Of a DNA stretch of 64,000 nt, positions 2,803 through 64,000 are shown in pieces. The notes below the pieces were generated by a model, which saw only the letters and a program-made list of their open reading frames with translations, was not told where the DNA came from and searched no databases. Source of the stretch: the human T2T-CHM13v2.0 reference genome, Homo sapiens. The stretch lies in NCBI RefSeq assembly GCF_009914755.1, contig NC_060927.1; one strand, 5' to 3'. The translations under genes and the position numbers were made by a program. Within the stretch, counting starts at the first letter, position 1. Each line of letters opens with the position of its first letter.

Positions 2803-3123
2803 AGAATACATTTCTCTTTCCTTTTTACCTTATCTGTAAATGATTAATTCCCTTTTCTAGAATGACAATAGCTAAAATTCCAATTCAACATCTACACAGC
2901 TACCTCTAAGGTCTCATCGATGGTGCAAGAGATTAACTGGACCTGGTAAAGATTCTCTCTGGCACCAAGGGACTGGCTCTGCAGGAATCCAGCTGGCCTC
3001 TTTTGTTCCACAGAGTAAACATAGCTTATTTCATTTAATCTCAATCACATACTATGGCAACTATGTGCATAGGTCCCATCTTTGAAGACATCCAAAAGGA
3101 AGATATTCTTATGCTACTTGTAG

Positions 3124-3494
<371 letters not shown>

Positions 3495-4707
3495 TAAGAC
3501 TATAGAACTGCTTTTAAAAGTTAGCGATGTGATAATTAAACATAAATCATCATCATTCACATAAGAATTTAAAATAGTCCCAAATGAAGAGACAGCTAGC
3601 ATTAAAAACAATTTCTACTTTTATGAGTTAAATCAATGTCATAAGCAAAATAGTTTTCTTTTAAAAAATTATCTGTTCTCTATCTTTAGAATCTTTCTGC
3701 CAAATCCCCTTCCCACACTTGTCAAGTCAAGTATATCTTACACAGCCCACATTCTCCCACATCTAAATTATTTGGGTTTGATTGCCAGCCACATGAAATG
3801 TTAATCAAAGTAAATAGTTATCACTTATTTTTAGATAGGGTGACACCTGGCATTTTTCTTTCCTCACTATCTTCTCAAAACCTCTCTTATTCTGATAATC
3901 AAACGTAACCCCTTTCTTATCTTCTCCAACAATGATCAATGGCTTCCCTCATTTTTGTTAATTTGGACTACTCAAAAACAAAAGTATCTACCATTTTAAT
4001 ATGATTATTGTAATTGAGGTGCAACTTGGTGTGATTTAATATAACAATACATTGATACGTAGCATTAGGAAAAATATAGTGCAGCTTTAAAATATATATA
4101 CAGACAATTCAAGAGCAAAAATGTGTAATGCCCATTCTTGAGGTTGACTTTATCTATGGATCCATCTGTATCTTCATTCTGTCCATAAAAGTCTCCTAGT
4201 TACCACTTCCCACAGTTCTACTCTAACACTCAATCCATAGGAAGCACCTGTCCAGCCGACGACCTCATTGCTCATCCTCTCCTAAATGGTCAAAATGACA
4301 ACTTCCATTAGGCAGAATTCTTCACTTTGGTGTTGAATGGGTGTAATCGTAGGCAGATTAATCACCAATCTGCCATTTTAGAAAATGGGATTGCCCAGTT
4401 TCATCTTGAGAAATCTTAAATCCATAATTATATTTGAAAATAACTTCAAAACCTAAAAGATTCCAGAGATTACTTGACTCAAACCATGAATTTTATGTTT
4501 GTGTATTTGCCTTTTTCTGGACATCCATGAGTGAGTTCAATTAGTCAAACTCCTTAGCTCATGACAGAGTCTATTTGTCCATGAAGGTTCCTCACATGTA
4601 TAATTTTATTCTTCCCTTCATTCTTGATATTATTTCCACTGCCTTCTTTTTTCAATGAGTACCCATGATAGCATGTCATGGAATATCTACATGTCTTTGA
4701 AAAAGTA

Positions 4708-4843
4708 GGCTGGGCACAGTGGCTCACACTTATAATCCCAGCACTTTAGGAGGTGAAACAGGAGGATTGCTGGAGGCCAGAGTTCATGACCAGCTGGACA
4801 ACATAGTGACACCCAATCTCTATTTATAAAAATAAAAAGGAAA
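4708..4843 (+). mobile_element. FLAM_C free left Alu monomer
   Basis: ggctgggcacagtggctcac...ggaggattgctggaggccagagttc...A-rich tail; TSD GAAAAAGTA at 4699-4707 and 4844-4852. Confidence 0.85.
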
Positions 4844-5319
4844 GAAAAAGTAGTAGAATACTATGAGTTTTACATGTACATAAAATATCAATTTGAGGTA
4901 CTAACAGTTTTATTGTATGTCTTTTTATTTCATTCAACCCTATGTTTGTTAGGTATAGGAGGACTGTTGTTCTAAATACATCTCATTCATTTTTTTCTTG
5001 CAATTAAATAGCACAATTAGGTGGTCTTCATTTGTCTGCTGTAATAAACGTGTGTAATTATTACTCAACTAAGACAATTTGAAGGAGAATATTTACAAAT
5101 GAACAATTTTTAAAAGATGTGGATAGGGCTTAGGGAAACCACAAAGGTTATTTTGTTACCCAGGGTTAGAAGCAGCAGAGCTCCTTGGACCTCTAGGTTC
5201 AAAAAAATAAATGCGGATCATGGTTGCTAAAACCTAAAAAAAAAGAGCCGTGCCAAAGTCTACACCTGGAGAGCAGTGGCCTCGGTGGAGGAGCATAACC
5301 AGCTTAAGCTGCTCCTCAG

Positions 5320-7050
5320 GTCTCTAGGGCTCTACTCATTTTTCTTCATTCTTGTTTCTTTCTATTCTTCAGACTAGATAATTTCAATTGGCCTATCTTG
5401 AAGTTTGCCAATTCTTTCTTCTACTAGCTCAAATCTACTGTCGAGCCCTCTTGTGAAATTTTCATTTCAGTTATAGTATATTTCAACTCCAGAATTTTTG
5501 TACATGTTTTTAAAAAATAATTTCTATCTCTTTATTGAAACTCTTTTTTTAACATATAAAATTTTAATTTGCTAATTATTTTACAATAAAAATATAATAA
5601 TCCCACTTTTTTAAATTATACTTTCAGTTCTGGGGTACATGTGTAGAATGTGCAGGTTTGTTACATAGGTATACACTTGCCATGGTGGTTCTTTATTGGG
5701 TGAAATATTCTCATACATTCCTCCAGTTCTTTACCTATAGTTCCCTTTAGTTTTTTGAACATATTCAAAATAGCTGCTATCAATATTTTTCTGGTAACTC
5801 CAGTGTTTAACTCCAAGGCTTTCCCAGGGACAGTTTCTACTGTGTTTTCTCCCTGCCCTGTACAAGGGCCATAATTTCTTGTTTCTTGCATTTCTTGCGA
5901 TGCTTTGTTGAAATCTAGACCTTTAAATAATATAACGTATTCACCCTCCAGGGTGGTAGAGTTGCTGTTTGTTGCTGCTGCTGATTGCTGTTTGTTTCTT
6001 TAGAGACTTTCTAGAACTACTTTTGTAAAATTGTTATTTTTGTTGTATGAACTTTTTGTCGTATGTAGCCACTGAAGTTTAAATGCCTCAAAGCAATAAA
6101 CCTCCCAGATTTCACCAAGGAGCTAGTTTGTGTGTTGTGGTATACCTTAAGTGAACTGCTTGGCAGTTTAAAATTCTCCTTTAGCCTTTACTTCCTGCTT
6201 GCACAGAACTTCAAGGTTAGTCAAAGAAGAGAAATCAGAGATTTCTTAGGTCTTTCTTGGGCATACATACAGCTCTGCTCATGTGTGCAGCCTTCTAAAT
6301 TTCTCAGATTATTTTAGAAAGTTTTCAAAGCCCCTCTATGGCTTTTTTAGTTCCCAGTGTTTTCTTTCTTTCTTTCTTTCTTTTTAATTCCTTTCCAACT
6401 TTTATTTTAGGCTCAGCCTCTTGCTTCCTTTTCAGCTGTTTGGTCAGCTTGTTGTTGGTTCCAACTGTTATCACCACCTCAGGCAGCTTCAACGTTAAAA
6501 AAAAAAAAAAAGCCATGTAAATATGTACAAATGTTATGTACCAATAGAAAAACACAAAATTTCCAATGATTGTTTTCACAAATGCCTCAGGGAGAAAGCC
6601 ATTCACAGTGAGTCAGTTCTGATCAGGTTAAATAAAAACAAGCCATGCAAGTGGGGATTTGCAGAAAACAGCCAGATAGATCCCGTAATGACAATTCCCT
6701 GGGGATGGGCTTTTTAGGGAAGCTTTACATTCTTCTGCTGTCTCCAGTGACTGCTTGGCAACTGGTTTTCATGATGACTAACATCATGAAACTGTTGGTT
6801 TTCAAGGCCACTGCAGAGCTGGGGAGAAGCGGGTGGGAGTACACAGCAAGTGAAATGTCACGTTTATTGCTCCTTCTGCAATTCAGTCACTCTTCAGTAA
6901 ATATTCCTCACATTATTCCAAGCCTTTACTTTATTTCCAAAGTTCTGAAGAAGTTGAGTGATCATTTTTTTAACCAGTGTTATTTTTATGCACAAGAGGC
7001 TTTCAGATTTCCTTATTTTGCTGTTTCTAGGGGTGTCATCACTTACTAAT
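5320..7050 (-). mobile_element. Old L1M 5'/ORF1-region fragment, interrupted by a younger L1PA piece
   Basis: ttcagactagataatttcaattggcctatcttgaagtt...ttcaactccagaattt is typical antisense L1M ORF1 sequence; boundaries approximate. Confidence 0.65.
5544..5690 (-). mobile_element. Heavily 5'-truncated L1PA 3' end (5607-5690) with a putative 56-bp 3' transduction
   Basis: ttatactttcagttctggggtacatgtgtagaatgtgcaggtttgttacataggtatacac is the antisense L1PA 3' terminus; second T-tract at 5544-5550. Confidence 0.8.
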
Positions 7051-59732: not shown

Positions 59733-61762
59733 ATCCGTTATCTGATGGCCAAGAGAAGCATATTGCACTCTGTAACCTGACTAGATTATTATTCTCAACC
59801 ATGTGCTGCCACAGAAAACAGAAAAAAGTTTAGGCTTGCAGAAGCGAAAGACTGATCCATGATGTATTTAAGAAGTAAGTAGCCCTACTACATTAATAGA
59901 ATTCTAATATACCTCATCCAGGCTTATATGGAACTTGTAACAACAGTATATTCAAGAGAATTTAACTCAAGATATATAAATTGATTGAATGCTGAACTCT
60001 ACTGCAGTTATTAGGACTAATTTCCCCCTTCTGAATCTTACACTGACATTTACACCATTTTAATAAGAACCCATTATGAGTCTCATTTTAGGGGAAGGGA
60101 TTCTATTAAGTGAAAGTAACCACATATGTATCCAAGCAAATGCCAAGTAGAACAAGAAACAGATTTTAAATGAAGTTAAAATTCATAACAGTAAAGAATG
60201 ATGGTAATACCTCATATTTGTCTAATTCTTTTTTTTAACAAAACACTTTCAAATACCCTGTCTCTTTAGTTTTCATAAAACCCTTTGTTAAAGAAAGATA
60301 TTTATCTGGAGTTCAGGCCTAACATCCTATGGATTTCTATTGCTGTTTGACAGTAGAATCTTATAAGTTGGGATATTATCAAGGCAACTTTTAAGAATAA
60401 ACCATGAGAATTGAATTAGTCATTTTTAAATGTTCTAGAAAAGTCAGTTGGCATTGGCACTAAAGAACATTACATTCCTACAATTCTTTTCCTTTTAGAA
60501 AACACGACTAATTTGCATGACAGGCCAGGTGGTCCATTTGCATAGATAAGACCAAAGAAAATGTGTGCTACACTCTGGAAGGTTGAGGGACACAGGAGGG
60601 AAAGGAATAATACAGAGTGTGCCTTTTATTTTTAATCTTTTATTTGCTAGCTCAGGCAAAGTCTAAATGGATCAGTGAGGTCCACAAATCACTTTGTTCA
60701 TTTTTTCTAACACCTGACATCTTTCAAATAAAAAAGATCATATTTATATTTTAGATATACTTAACAAAGTAAACAATAACAGAACAAAATAATAGAAAAA
60801 TACTATAGAAAAAATAGTTGAATTTAGAAGTATAAGTGTTTTAACTAATCAGAATTTTTTCTTGATTCTATTATACTTACTTTATTCTTCCATTTAAAAC
60901 ATACTATAAATCAGATTTATACCAGTTGCAGAAATAATACTTATTGTTTGCATAAAAAATTGATGGCAATGAATAGGAAAATACTTCAAGCTTCTTATAA
61001 TAAAGCTGATACAATTGTTCCACCTTCCTAAAATGGACCCTAGGAAATGATAAGACAAAATGTAATATAAACTGCAATCAAAATTGAAAAATGTAAACTG
61101 TAATAGCTATTCACAAAGCATACATTTATATACTATATAAAAAACAACAAAAACCTAAATTACAAAAAATAAGCAATGAGGCAGAACTTTGGAAAGAATT
61201 CAAAATAAAACAATTATTTAGAAATGAAGACTAAACTTAAAAAGAATACAAGAGAAATGAACATAATAAGTAATGCCTTATTTTAAGTAGAAGGTCAAAA
61301 GAAATGAATAGAGATAAATAGGATTAACAGAAAGTGATGATTCAGTAAGATAGAGAAGATAGAGAAGATTCAAGGAACAAATAATAGGAAATCCTGAAGA
61401 AAACAAACCAAGGATATAAGACAAATACTAAAGACTGAGTTCTAAGAAAAATTTTCAGAAACTTTAAAGATAAATTTGAAATTACATACCTCATATGTAC
61501 ATACTGAACATACCTTTTACCTGAGACACCAAGACATATTCTAGGAAAATTACTAGACTTTAAAGAAAAAGAAAAAAGTCTTTGGATATTAAGGTAAAAT
61601 GAACAAAGGAAAGAAATTCTGGTTCTTTTCAGACTTTTTGGTGCAATGCTTTATGCCAGAAGAAAGGAAGTACCGTATTTATGCTACTCAATGAAAGAAA
61701 ATTTGAACTGAGGATTGTATATTCAACAAAATTGACTTTCAAACATAAATGTATCCATTCTC

Positions 61763-62113
61763 TGTCAGGCCTGTGAGCCCAAGCTAAGCCATCATATCCC
61801 CTGTGACCTGCACGTACACATCCAGATGGCCGGTTCCTGCCTTAACTGATGACATTATCTTGTGAAATTCCTTCTCCTGGCTCAAAAGCTCCCCAACTGA
61901 GCACATTGTGACCCCCACTCCTGCCCGCCACAGAACAACCTCCTTTGACTGTAATTTTCCTTTACCTACCCAAATCTTATAAAACGGCCCCACCCCTATC
62001 TCCCTTTGCTGACTCTCTTTTTGGACTCAGCCTGCCTGCACCCAGGTGAAATAAACAGCCCTGTTGCTCACACAAAGCCTGCTTGGTGGTCTCTTCACAT
62101 GGACGCGAGTGAA
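61763..62113 (+). mobile_element. LTR7 (HERV-H LTR), complete U3-R-U5, short variant
   Basis: tgtcaggcctgtgagcccaagctaagccatc...TATAAAA 61978-61984, AATAAA 62050-62055, ends gcgagtgaa; preceded by TSD TTCTC at 61758-61762. Confidence 0.96.
61978..62010 (+). promoter_or_regulatory. LTR7 core promoter: TATA box, GC/GT box and predicted cap site G62008
   Basis: TATAAAA at 61978, ggccccacccc downstream, and GC dinucleotide 30 nt from the TATA start; TSS inferred from spacing only. Confidence 0.6.
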
Positions 62114-63460
62114 CGCTATCTGATTTGGATAAAGAAAAAGGAGCATTAACCTTGACTATGCCTTTAGCTTCAGCCACCTTTTTAAGAGGAAATTGCTGGG
62201 CAAGTGGGGGAGGGCTAGTCATGGAACAAAACTGTAAGTGGTACCAGGTGGAGGAACGGAGGTTGAGGAAGAATTGGGACCTAGCTTGGCCTGGCGAGGA
62301 GGGGAGAGGTCAGATGGGTCTGTAGAGAAGGAAGATTAGAAAGACTCAGTGATGCTTGGGGTTGGGACTGAGGGGACAGGCAGGAGGGAAAGAAGGAAGA
62401 TTTGGGATGAATCGCATTGGGAACAGAAAGTAGGGAGGGACTGATGTGTAAAAGAATGCCTGGAGGTCAGGCACCTCAGACCACTTGCCCATTTTACGAC
62501 AAGAATTATTTAGATCTTGTAGGATGGAAGAATTGAAAGTGCCATTTTCTGGCTATTTGGAACCACTGTCGAGTTTGTATTGTGGTCAAGTGGCATTGCA
62601 GAAGAACATAGGCATTTAGGTTTTAGGTCAGGTATGAGTTGAAGAGATTTTAGGTTTTTAAGAACGCAGGCTAAGGGAGAAGAAGGGGGAATGGAGGGCG
62701 GAAGCTTGCCCATAGTGAAGGAGGCAAGCCCAGAGAAAAGAGAGAGTAAAGACAAGGAGAGAAGGGGTGGGGGGTTCTTGCCCCCCAGAAAAGCAGAGAA
62801 GGGGTCTGGGCATGGAAATAAGGGGGTAGGGCGCAGAGATAAGAGGTTGGGGCACAGAAATAAGGGATCGGGGCACAGAGATAAGAGGTTGGGGTGTGGA
62901 AATAAGGGATCGGGGGATTCTTGCCCCCCAGAAAAGCAGAGAAGGGGTAGAGATAGGGAGAGAAGGTGTTGGGGTTCTTGCTCCTCCCCCAGAAAAGCAG
63001 GACGTGCCCCTAAGGGTGAAAGACCAAGGCAGGCGTCCCTGCGTGGTCAGACACCTCTGAAATGTGGGTGAATAATCAGAGAGGTGTCCCTGCAATGATT
63101 AAACACCAAAGGAAGGCTGCCTTCCTGAGTCCATGACCAGCGCCGGAGTTTTGGGTCCACGGATAAAACGTGTCTCCTTTGTCTCTACTAGAAAATGAAA
63201 GGAATTGAAATTAAGAGAAGGGAGAGATTGAAGTGTGGCGCCAAGATTGAAAGGAGAAAGTGGTTGAGGGATAGTGAGAGAGGTTGCAGAAGAGAGTAAG
63301 AAGAGGCCGCTTACCTGATTTAAAATTGGTGAGATGTTCCTTGGGCTGGTGGGTCTGAGGACCTGAGGTGGTAGTTGGATCTTTCTCATGGAGCAAAATG
63401 CAGGAGGATAGGGGATTGATCTCCCAAGGGAGGTCCCCCTATCCGAGTCACGGCACCAAA
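62114..63460 (-). mobile_element. HERV-H internal leader/gag segment, inverted relative to the flanking LTR ends
   Basis: Minus strand starts tttggtgccgtgactcggatagggggacctcccttgggagatcaatcccc; major splice donor aatcag|gtaagc at ~63309-63317; leader tandem repeats at 62760-63000. Confidence 0.95.
63441..63458 (-). other. Primer binding site for tRNA-His
   Basis: TGGTGCCGTGACTCGGAT, an 18/18 complement of the tRNA-His 3' end. Confidence 0.95.
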
Positions 63461-63650
63461 TTTCACCCGTGCCCCTGTAAAGAGACCACCAAACAGGCTT
63501 TGTGTGAGCAACAAGGCTGTTTATTTCACCTGGGTGCAGGCGGGCTGACTCTCTTTTCGGACTCAGCCCACCTGCGCCCAGGTGAAATAAACAGCCTTGT
63601 TGCTCACACAAAGCCTGTTTGGTGGTATCTTTACATGGACGTGAGTGAAA
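63461..63650. repeat. LTR7 R-U5 palindrome: 88-bp arms (63461-63548 minus, 63563-63650 plus) and a 14-nt loop
   Basis: 80/88 arm identity with a 50-bp perfect core; the ORF track gives the same peptides (CEQQGCLFHLGAGGL and PGEINSLVAHTKPVWW) on both strands; followed by TSD TTCTC at 63651-63655. Confidence 0.97.
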
Positions 63651-64000
63651 TTCTCAAAATGCAGAAATTTAAGGAACAATGTTTCTTTGAGCTCCTTCTG
63701 AGGAATCTACTAATGAACAGCTTCAGTCAACGAAAATAATTAGAGACACTGACTGGTGGTGAACATTATACACTCACATGTAGACTTAAGAGTAGCTAGT
63801 GGTTAAAAGAGATGAAGTATAATACATAACAGCTACATGCTCTGACAATGTAGACATAGTATGACTATTAGAAATAGAAAATGAGGACCATGAATACAAC
63901 AAAAATATTTAACTGTTTTCAGTCAGTATATTGGTGGTGTTAGTATTGTTATTCTAAGCAGTTAAAATATAAAGTGGTGGATGAAACAACTGAATAATTC

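What the first reader, a model, noticed from the sequence alone, without database searches (positions are those of the whole stretch)
61978..63650. Architecture of a natural antisense and hairpin-RNA cassette against the HERV-H family
Seen: an intact LTR7 core promoter points into 1.35 kb of sequence antisense to HERV-H leader/gag, including an anti-PBS and an anti-splice-donor. An 88-bp stem follows with a 14-nt loop, a 50-bp perfect core, and 3 of 8 mismatches able to form G-U wobbles in plus-strand RNA; AATAAA lies at 63586-63591 in the 3' arm. The 5' R-U5 (62027-62113) can also pair with 63461-63548. Established: R is present in every HERV-H transcript, LTR7 subfamilies are active in early embryo and pluripotent cells, and long stems are substrates for ADAR, Drosha/Dicer and PKR. 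Inference: if transcribed from the LTR or by host read-through in either direction, the locus could yield dsRNA or small RNAs that target many HERV-H/LTR7 transcripts in trans. Caveat: AATAAA at 62050 may terminate LTR-initiated RNA early because the viral splice donor now faces the other way.
Basis: inference. Interest (0 to 1): 0.7.

Follow-up and report, generated by a model that had tools for sequence, protein, structure and literature searches.

The report
Rearranged HERV-H provirus with snap-back palindrome
This is a 1.9-kb defective HERV-H retrovirus insertion whose odd inverted layout is best read as a fossil of a reverse-transcription accident, and nothing in the sequence shows that it works as an RNA weapon against other HERV-H copies.

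Summary
It is one integration event. Window 61763-63650 (1,888 bp) carries authentic LTR ends and a perfect 5-bp target-site duplication, TTCTC.

Inside lie a complete LTR7-type LTR (+), about 1.33 kb of PBS-His, leader and gag start in inverted orientation, and an R-U5/R-U5 palindrome. The palindrome turns at the first base of R. Six U3-less HERV-H copies, one with a poly(A) tail, mark the same position as the RNA 5' end. Its outer arm ends at the U5 terminus. Minus-strand strong-stop DNA folded as DNA has a paired 3'-terminal hairpin there.

I read this as snap-back self-priming of strong-stop DNA, rescued into an integration-competent molecule. Three other loci carry inverted R-U5 pairs, two of them turning at the same point. 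One is flanked by its own 5-bp duplication.

The three R-U5 copies are equidistant (81-82 of 91), so the stem has decayed neutrally. No transcript, Rfam family or second copy was found. The "anti-HERV-H cassette" remains speculation.

The parts
61758..61762 (.). Left copy of the 5-bp target-site duplication, TTCTC
   Evidence: Identical to 63651-63655. The reference provirus L012 also has a 5-bp duplication (GTCAG) around TGTCAGG...GTGAAA ends.
61763..62113 (+). Complete LTR7-type LTR (U3-R-U5) of a short-U3 form, starting TGTCAGG. TATAAA at 61978, inferred cap site G at 62008, AATAAA at 62050, inferred poly(A) site after 62071. It lacks the last A of the GTGAAA terminus.
   Evidence: Aligns to the LTRs of 6 ordinary copies and to L012. 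The U3 part matches 39 other genomic LTRs at 88-94% over at least 244 of 248 nt. Cap and poly(A) sites are inferred by analogy with L011-L017 and L016.
62008..62031 (+). Natural quasi-palindrome at the 5' end of R: GCTGACTC, an 8-nt loop, then GACTCAGC (7 of 8 pairs)
   Evidence: Read. In the complementary strong-stop DNA it forms a 3'-terminal hairpin with the last base paired, in 4 of 4 copies folded.
62112..62114 (.). Junction 1: the U5 end of the LTR is joined to inverted gag, with a 2-nt overlap (AA) shared by both partners
   Evidence: The LTR alignment ends at 62113. Internal homology begins at 62112 (query position 38) in 38 other copies and at query position 36 in one, out of 39 scored besides the window. 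Only the window's own locus spans the junction (40 of 865 candidates scored).
62114..62713 (-). Inverted 5' part of gag. An ORF fragment begins MGKLPPS at 62713 and is broken by frame changes.
   Evidence: Collinear with positions up to 2037 of the reference provirus L012. There is no Pfam match; the 'gag' label rests on position and on recall of the HERV-H Gag start.
62714..63440 (-). Inverted leader, with 21-nt and 143-nt internal repeats and a CAG|GTAAG motif (complement of 63310-63317)
63441..63458 (-). Primer-binding site for tRNA-His, 18 of 18, in inverted orientation
63461..63543 (-). Inner palindrome arm: R-U5 in inverted orientation, continuous with the PBS and leader. In my model it is the snap-back copy.
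63544..63650 (+). Outer palindrome arm: R-U5 from the cap-site G to the GTGAAA terminus. It includes the R hairpin and loop in sense orientation, and AATAAA at 63586. Its complement is, in my model, the original minus-strand strong-stop DNA.
   Evidence: Direct repeat of 62008-62113 at 92%. For the loop orientation. It ends at the U5 terminus, next to the target-site duplication.
63651..63655 (.). Right copy of the target-site duplication, TTCTC

Best explanation
Window 61763-63650 is a single, defective HERV-H integration. Its DNA was mis-assembled during reverse transcription, before it entered the chromosome.

Proposed sequence of events:
1. tRNA-His primed minus-strand strong-stop DNA (-sssDNA), which ran through U5 and R to the capped 5' end of the RNA.
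2. The first strand transfer did not happen. Instead the 3' end of -sssDNA folded on the short hairpin that R carries at its very 5' end and primed on itself (snap-back). It copied R-U5 and then the PBS.
3. This PBS-ended strand was extended in the sense direction through the leader and into gag, about 1.58 kb into the provirus.
4. Its 3' end paired by two bases (AA/TT) with the 3' end of a U3-R-U5 plus strand, and each strand copied the other.
5. The result was an 1,888-bp linear DNA with a genuine U3 end on the left and a genuine U5 end on the right. Integrase inserted it with a 5-bp duplication.

Steps 1, 2 and 5 are supported by sequence. Steps 3 and 4 are inference.

Since insertion the element has decayed neutrally. 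Its ability to give antisense or hairpin RNA is a by-product of the layout. It would act only if the locus is transcribed, which is not shown.
For: 1. One event. Perfect TTCTC lies at 61758-61762 and 63651-63655, outside TGTCAGG... and ...GTGAAA ends. The ordinary provirus L012 has the same ends and a 5-bp duplication.

2. The turn is at the RNA 5' end. The outer arm starts at G 63544, equivalent to 62008, which is 30 nt after the TATAAA at 61978. Six other loci (L011, L013-L017) begin HERV-H sequence at this base, preceded by GG and non-HERV DNA. One of them, L016, ends in R plus poly(A) and has a GAAAAATG duplication, so it is a copy of an RNA.

3. The outer arm ends at the U5 terminus, which is where -sssDNA begins.

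4. The 8-nt loop and the C/C mismatch are in sense orientation on the + strand. The strand that runs from the U5 terminus, antisense, through the loop and back in sense is therefore continuous, as snap-back predicts.

5. The inferred -sssDNA, folded as DNA, has a 3'-terminal hairpin with its last base paired in 4 of 4 copies, in both the minimum-free-energy and centroid structures.

6. It recurs. Among 11 genomic matches to a pattern for the palindrome centre (0 in the control), 3 are true palindromes: the window, L009 and L010.
   - L009 shows a -sssDNA arm that starts with the AA complementary to the TT before the PBS. The turn, R-U5 and exactly 18 nt of PBS follow, and then unrelated joining.
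   - L010 is flanked by GTGAT on both sides, with the palindrome arm serving as one integration end.
   - L018 is a free-standing inverted R-U5 pair.

7. Timing. The three R-U5 copies are equidistant (81, 82 and 82 of 91), with private differences of 5, 5 and 4.

8. Self-priming of (-)ssDNA through a 3' hairpin is an established in-vitro reaction (passages of PMC6088434, and PMC4668388).
Against: - Junction 1 (62113/62114) fits no canonical step. It is 1 nt short of the integrase-processed end and shows only 2 nt of overlap, so steps 3 and 4 are a reconstruction.
- L010 has the loop in the opposite orientation relative to its internal sequence, so one simple scheme does not cover all loci.
- The timing test rests on only 14 differences in 91 columns.
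- The 5-bp duplication has a chance probability of about 1 in 1,000, and no empty site or orthologue could be examined.
- The same quasi-palindrome could also nucleate a fold-back during host DNA replication or repair.
- The review read states that self-primed products are dead ends and were not detected in endogenous HIV-1 reactions.
Confidence: 0.7

Rival explanations
1. An ordinary HERV-H provirus integrated here and was rearranged later by the host. Replication template switching, or fold-back repair at the LTR's short inverted repeat, produced an inverted duplication of R-U5-PBS-leader-gag and deleted the rest.
For: R carries a natural 8-bp quasi-palindrome at the turn. Fold-back inversions mediated by single-stranded DNA hairpins are a known kind of host rearrangement (abstract of PMC7467729, seen in the listing). 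Junction 1 has 2-nt microhomology.
Against: It needs three R-U5 copies to arise from two. It also needs a breakpoint that falls by chance within 1 nt of the U5 end of the left LTR. The outer arm ends exactly at the U5 terminus and carries the target-site duplication. In L010 the palindrome arm itself is one of the two integration ends, flanked by GTGAT. In L009 the arm is followed by exactly 18 nt of PBS. The palindrome arms are no younger than the left LTR copy.
Confidence: 0.15
2. One reading: the locus is a working natural antisense and hairpin-RNA source. Transcribed from its LTR7 or by read-through, it yields dsRNA or small RNAs that act in trans on HERV-H/LTR7 transcripts.
For: The structural potential is real. 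There is a 93-bp stem with a 50-bp perfect core (-157 kcal/mol as + strand RNA). There is 1.33 kb of sequence antisense to the PBS, leader and gag. The LTR has a TATA box and is full length for its subfamily.
Against: There is no sign that pairing was maintained: the arms match at 82 of 91, against 81 and 82 of 91 to the third copy. Most arm differences are transitions, 4 of 14 of them at CpG, as expected from decay. Rfam has no match. The hub table shows no annotated gene within 100 kb. AATAAA lies 42 nt after the cap site, and a poly(A) site is used there in an RNA-derived copy. The splice donor that follows it in normal copies is inverted here. This is the only such LTR7 locus found. I saw no expression data of any kind.
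Confidence: 0.04
3. Junction 1 was made by integrase, not by a template switch. A processed U5 end attacked the viral DNA's own gag region in inverted orientation (autointegration). The remainder followed as in the best explanation.
For: The junction joins the 3' end of U5 on the sense strand to the antisense strand of gag. That is the polarity strand transfer would give. The LTR is intact to within 1 nt of its processed terminus.
Against: The LTR stops at GTGAA, one base short of the GTGAAA seen at integrated ends. There is no duplicated gag target. Autointegration normally gives circles, not an integration-competent linear DNA (recalled).
Confidence: 0.1
4. The palindrome is an assembly or sequencing artefact, that is, a fold-back chimeric read.
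For: Fold-back chimeras are a known artefact of long-read libraries (abstract of PMC13722937, seen in the listing).
Against: The arms differ at 9 of 93 positions, and an artefactual copy would be identical. The structure sits inside a coherent element with matching target-site duplications.
Confidence: 0.01

Closest known systems
Self-priming of HIV-1 minus-strand strong-stop DNA through the cTAR hairpin (Guo et al. 1997, as described in PMC6088434, passages read)
   Same: The 3' end of (-)ssDNA forms a hairpin made by the complement of the 5'-terminal R structure. It is extended on itself and gives an inverted R-U5 copy. The palindrome here turns at that place and has that strand continuity.
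   Different: The known reaction is an in-vitro dead end, suppressed by nucleocapsid protein and not detected in endogenous reactions. Here the product appears to have been carried on into an integrated germ-line element of a gamma-like ERV. Its hairpin is only 8 bp.
Defective HIV-1 proviruses with asymmetric LTRs or internal inversions (PMC9278108, passages read)
   Same: These are integrated proviruses whose two ends differ because of misaligned strand transfers. The explanation invokes two co-packaged genomes.
   Different: Those are mostly 3'-LTR deletions. No R-U5 palindrome centred on the cap site is described in the passages I read.
Moloney MLV provirus with inverted LTRs integrated through two U3 ends (Colicelli and Goff 1988; recalled, not looked up)
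   Same: Integrase can insert a viral DNA whose two termini are the same LTR edge. L010 (GTGAT duplication, two U5 termini) is the mirror case.
   Different: The window's own element uses a normal U3 end and a normal U5 end. Only its interior is aberrant.
Host fold-back inversions and quasi-palindrome template switching (PMC7467729, abstract in the listing only)
   Same: A short inverted repeat nucleates a hairpin in single-stranded DNA, and an inverted duplication results.
   Different: Host events have no reason to end at a retroviral U5 terminus or to be bracketed by an integrase-type 5-bp duplication.
Hairpin-RNA (endo-siRNA) loci and inverted-repeat transposon dsRNA, such as Drosophila hpRNA, mouse oocyte hairpin loci and inverted Alu pairs (recalled)
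   Same: A long near-perfect inverted repeat of transposon sequence would be a Dicer, ADAR or PKR substrate if transcribed.
   Different: Those loci are defined by observed transcripts and small RNAs. Neither is known here, and the stem shows no conservation beyond neutral expectation.

Membership tests
HERV-H (LTR7 / HERVH-int) provirus | LTR homologous to the family's LTRs, with TGTCAGG... and ...GTGAAA ends | tested here: met
   61763-62113 aligns to the LTRs of 6 of 6 fetched copies and to L012. 39 other LTRs match U3 at 88-94%. The names LTR7 and HERV-H are recalled; no repeat library was available.
HERV-H (LTR7 / HERVH-int) provirus | Primer-binding site complementary to tRNA-His | tested here: met
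   18 of 18 against the 3' end of a tRNA-His(GTG) gene of the same genome plus CCA.
HERV-H (LTR7 / HERVH-int) provirus | Internal sequence collinear with the family's leader and gag | tested here: met
   62112-63551 aligns in reverse to positions 364-2037 of the reference provirus L012 at 83-89%, and to 6 other copies. Pfam finds no Gag domain.
HERV-H (LTR7 / HERVH-int) provirus | Canonical layout: two direct LTRs around sense gag-pol(-env) | tested here: not met
   There is one full LTR. The internal part is inverted and cut at about 1.58 kb, and the right end is R-U5 only. It is a rearranged derivative, not a canonical provirus.
HERV-H (LTR7 / HERVH-int) provirus | 5-bp target-site duplication | tested here: met
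   TTCTC on both sides. The reference L012 has GTCAG.
Snap-back (self-primed) minus-strand strong-stop DNA product | Inverted repeat made of R-U5 only, turning at the 5' end of R (the RNA cap site) | tested here: met
   The arms cover R-U5. The turn is at the base where 6 U3-less copies begin, one of them a polyadenylated RNA copy.
Snap-back (self-primed) minus-strand strong-stop DNA product | First-made arm begins at the U5 terminus next to the PBS; the loop is continuous with that arm | tested here: met
   The outer arm ends at GTGAAA plus the target-site duplication. The loop is sense on the + strand, so it is antisense and continuous on the - strand. The same holds in L009. L010 has the opposite loop orientation.
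Snap-back (self-primed) minus-strand strong-stop DNA product | The 3' end of strong-stop DNA can form a primer-template hairpin | tested here: met
   A 3'-terminal hairpin with the last base paired is predicted in 4 of 4 copies folded as DNA. This is a prediction only, with no enzymology.
Snap-back (self-primed) minus-strand strong-stop DNA product | The second arm is followed by a PBS copied from the tRNA primer | tested here: met
   The inner arm runs on into an 18 of 18 PBS. In L009 exactly 18 nt of PBS follow before the sequence changes.
Hairpin-RNA / natural antisense regulatory locus | Transcription across the inverted repeat, and small RNAs or editing from it | not testable with these tools
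   No expression data could be reached. The hub table lists no gene within 100 kb.
Hairpin-RNA / natural antisense regulatory locus | Pairing preserved beyond neutral expectation | tested here: not met
   The arms match at 82 of 91, against 81 and 82 of 91 to the unpaired third copy. Power is low, and no orthologues were available.
Any curated RNA family (Rfam 15, including miRNA precursors) | Match to a covariance model | tested here: not met
   0 matches at E <= 1 over 61000-64000 on both strands.

The most novel reading that the evidence does not exclude
The locus is transcribed from its own LTR7-type promoter, or by read-through, in early embryo, germ line or tumours. Its 93-bp R-U5 hairpin and its 1.33 kb of anti-leader/gag RNA are then processed by Dicer or ADAR, or sensed by PKR or MDA5. 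This would give a single-copy, genome-encoded trans-acting brake or alarm on the roughly thousand HERV-H transcripts that all carry R-U5.
Probability: 0.04. Interest if true: 0.75.

Novelty: new variant of a known kind. Interest (0 to 1): 0.4.

Why it matters
As a regulatory element it does not matter yet, because nothing shows that it is used.

As a fossil it is more informative. [quoted passage not shown] That reaction is known from test tubes and regarded as a dead end. Here the product could still be completed and integrated.

Three related loci were found. L009 and L010 turn at the same point. L018 is a variant with a 58-nt spacer, and L010 was inserted through two U5 ends. Together they mark the ancient cap site of HERV-H-like RNAs to the base. 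They also suggest that the short hairpin at the start of R made this lineage prone to the error.

For annotators, it explains a layout that repeat maskers report only as disconnected LTR7 and HERVH-int fragments.

Tried and rejected
- Pfam on four stop-to-stop ORF pieces of the inverted gag region gave no family at E <= 0.1. The 'gag' label therefore rests on collinearity and recall.
- Rfam on 61000-64000 gave nothing.
- Search for a paralogous empty site. The left flank has only old repeat matches at 71-82% that stop before the junction. The right flank has 2 short matches. No locus is shared, so the target-site duplication could not be confirmed that way.
- Search for a second copy of either junction. 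Junction 1 occurs at the window's own locus only (40 of 865 candidates scored). An exact two-motif pattern for an LTR7 palindrome matched the window only. Because only 40 candidates are scored per DNA search and the patterns need exact matches, more diverged palindromes may exist.
- A target-site duplication for L009 could not be established, because the outer LTR end is not recognisable. L018 has none.
- Literature. Five searches found no paper describing R-U5 snap-back palindromes in endogenous retroviruses or an LTR7 hairpin locus. The library lacks most older subscription papers, so this is not proof of absence. PMC9911396 gave no base-level HERV-H start site. PMC12228294 gave only general expression statements.
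- The notes of earlier sessions were not open.
- A two-insertion explanation (a solo LTR beside a second element) was rejected, because the LTR has no duplication of its own at 62114.
- I also considered that the short U3 is a deletion that cripples the promoter. This was rejected, because 39 other LTRs share the short form.
Full report
**What is there.**
- An LTR lies on the + strand at 61763-62113, with TATAAA at 61978 and AATAAA at 62050.
- From 62112/62114 to 63551 the sequence is the reverse complement of R-U5, the primer-binding site and about 1.33 kb of internal sequence of ordinary HERV-H copies. It is collinear with 6 of 6 copies fetched from the same genome and with positions 364-2037 of a complete reference provirus, L012.
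- The primer-binding site is intact. Window + strand 63441-63458 equals the last 15 nt of a tRNA-His(GTG) gene of this genome plus CCA.
- On the minus strand a gag-like ORF fragment starts at 62713 (MGKLPPS...). Pfam does not recognise it.
- A CAG|GTAAG motif lies on the minus strand at 63310-63317.
- At 63459-63551 and 63560-63652 there are 93-nt inverted arms, 90% complementary, with a 50-bp perfect core.
- As RNA this region folds to -157 kcal/mol (+ strand, z = -20.4) or -166.9 kcal/mol (- strand, z = -22.3).

**One integration event.** The element starts TGTCAGG at 61763 and ends GTGAAA at 63650. It is bracketed by TTCTC at 61758-61762 and 63651-63655. The reference provirus L012 has the same termini and a 5-bp duplication, GTCAG. 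The 1,888 bp therefore entered the chromosome as one linear DNA with a proper U3 end and a proper U5 end. A solo LTR lying beside a second insertion is excluded, because the LTR has no duplication of its own at 62114. Both flanks are single-copy in the assembly apart from old diverged repeat matches, so the locus is not part of a segmental duplication. For the same reason no paralogous empty site exists to confirm the duplication.

**Where the palindrome turns.**
- The outer arm (63544-63650) is a direct repeat of 62008-62113 in the left LTR (92%). It begins at the G of GCTGACTC, 30 nt after the TATA box.
- That G is the RNA 5' end of this family on independent evidence. A pattern for the palindrome centre has 11 genomic matches and 0 in the reversed control.
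- Six of these (L011, L013, L014, L015, L016, L017) are HERV-H sequences that begin at this base. They are preceded by GG and then by unrelated DNA.
- L016 ends within the 3' LTR at ...GTTGCTCAC followed by A14. It is flanked by GAAAAATG(G), the signature of an L1-made copy of a capped, polyadenylated RNA.
- R itself begins with a small quasi-palindrome: GCTGACTC, 8 nt, GACTCAGC. The window's palindrome contains one copy of it, with the loop and the C/C mismatch in sense orientation on the + strand.
- On the minus strand one can therefore read without a break: U5 terminus, antisense U5-R, antisense loop, then sense R-U5, PBS, leader and gag. [quoted passage not shown] The strong-stop DNA starts at the U5 terminus, ends at the complement of the cap site, folds on the terminal hairpin, and copies itself and then the tRNA primer.
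- Folded as DNA, the inferred strong-stop strand of the window's two LTR copies and of two other proviruses has a 3'-terminal hairpin with the last base paired, in 4 of 4 cases.
- The GG seen at the start of the RNA-derived copies would correspond to two extra C residues at the 3' end of strong-stop DNA. These would pair with the GG next to the stem and lengthen the primer helix. This point is inference.

**It is not unique in kind.**
- A 77-nt query across the palindrome centre matched over nearly its full length at two other places (40 of 1,255 candidates scored). These belong to relatives with a tRNA-Phe-like primer-binding site.
- L009 (contig C2) reads as follows: flank; an arm that starts with the AA complementary to the TT before the PBS; antisense U5-R; antisense loop; sense R-U5; exactly 18 nt of PBS; 5 nt of filler; then internal sequence in antisense from position 2921 of the reference down to an LTR.
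- L010 (contig C1) is an inverted R-U5 arm joined to R-U5-PBS-internal-LTR. It has GTGAT immediately outside both ends, so it integrated through two U5 termini. Its loop has the opposite orientation relative to the internal part, which a single simple scheme does not explain.
- L018 (contig C5), found with the L009 query, is a free-standing pair of inverted R-U5 arms. They are separated by 58 nt that read by eye like antisense U3, and the pair sits inside an Alu without a duplication.
- In all four loci the free arms end at the U5 terminus.
- For LTR7 proper, the window's locus is the only one found. Each DNA search scored only 40 candidates and the patterns need exact matches, so these counts are lower bounds.

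**Timing and selection.**
- The three R-U5 copies (left LTR, inner arm, outer arm) match at 81, 82 and 82 of 91 aligned positions. They have 5, 5 and 4 private differences.
- One of the inner arm's differences is the structural C/G of the hairpin.
- Ten of the 14 are transitions, four of them at CpG.
- The star-like pattern fits three copies that were identical when the element integrated and have drifted since. It also shows that the hairpin arms have not been kept more alike than unpaired copies.
- About 5% per lineage suggests an age of tens of millions of years. That uses a recalled neutral rate and 91 sites, so it is very rough.

**What remains inferred.** Junction 1 (62113/62114) joins the sense-strand 3' end of U5, one base short of GTGAAA, to antisense gag. 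The partners share AA: internal homology starts at 62112 in 38 of the 39 other copies scored, and two bases earlier in one.
- I favour a 3'-to-3' pairing of a U3-R-U5 plus strand with the arrested extension of the snapped-back strand, followed by mutual copying. This gives the observed ends directly. Reverse transcriptases can switch templates on 2 nt of complementarity (passage of PMC4668388).
- An integrase-made junction (autointegration) has the right polarity but not the right terminal base.
- A host fold-back after integration remains possible (about 0.15). It must then explain why breakpoints fall at the U5 end and the cap site, and why palindrome arms carry integrase-type duplications at two independent loci.

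**Function.** The left LTR is full length for its subfamily: 39 other LTRs match its U3 at 88-94% over at least 244 of 248 nt (40 of 2,637 candidates scored). A promoter cannot be ruled out. However, there is no annotated gene within 100 kb (hub table) and no Rfam match. The R poly(A) signal lies 42 nt after the cap site, and the splice donor that normally follows it now points the other way. I saw no expression data. According to a review passage (PMC12228294), around 300 full-length LTR7-HERVH loci are expressed in pluripotent cells, mainly the LTR7up subfamilies. I could not assign this LTR to a named subfamily. The antisense and hairpin potential is real chemistry but an accidental consequence of how the DNA was made. 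I put a selected trans-silencing role at about 4%.

[quoted passage not shown] It is described as a dead end that nucleocapsid protein suppresses and that is not seen in endogenous reactions (PMC6088434, passages). Integrated HIV-1 proviruses with asymmetric LTRs and inversions are documented, and are explained by misaligned transfers between two co-packaged genomes (PMC9278108, passages). Five literature searches turned up no description of cap-site-centred R-U5 palindromes in endogenous retroviruses. Older subscription papers are outside the library, and supplements were not consulted. I therefore file this as a new variant of a known kind: a defective ERV whose defect is a recognisable, recurrent reverse-transcription error.

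Noticed in passing
L016 (G000:C22:28200621-28206648), about 3001-5840; also L011, L013, L014, L017: These are HERV-H copies that lack U3 at the 5' end and begin at GG+GCTGACTC. L016 ends in R plus A14 and is flanked by GAAAAATG(G), so it is an L1-type processed copy of a HERV-H RNA. The abstract of PMC5537654 (listing) calls HERV-W the sole HERV group mobilised by L1.
   Followed up: partly
L012 (G000:C1:208692933-208702932), 3001 and 7746: Both LTRs of one ordinary provirus read CCCTGGGCTGACTC where other copies read CCCTT(C/T)GCTGACTC. The two bases before the cap site are replaced by GG in both LTRs. This would be expected if non-templated bases added to strong-stop DNA at the cap were carried through the first strand transfer.
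   Followed up: partly
L015 (G000:C9:27009945-27015972), reverse strand about 3001-3112: This is a solitary 112-bp fragment, GG+R-U5, running from the cap site to the U5 terminus and directly abutting an Alu. It has the length of strong-stop DNA and nothing else of the provirus.
   Followed up: no
L018 (G000:C5:155036600-155046500), about 4848-5108: This is a free-standing inverted pair of R-U5 arms of a HERV-H/F-like LTR. They are separated by 58 nt that read by eye like antisense U3 including the TATA region. The pair is inserted in an Alu with no target duplication, and the terminal TT is retained.
   Followed up: partly
G000:C3:90162937-90163199 (about 12.9 kb beyond the window's end): Another LTR of the same short-U3 form, 88% identical to 61763-62010 and in the same orientation. 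Its relation to the window's element was not examined.
   Followed up: no
window 62734-63000: The inverted leader carries its own repeats: six 21-nt units and a 143-nt duplication with CCCCCAGAAAAGCAG three times. Ordinary copies align here with gaps, so repeat number varies among HERV-H copies.
   Followed up: no
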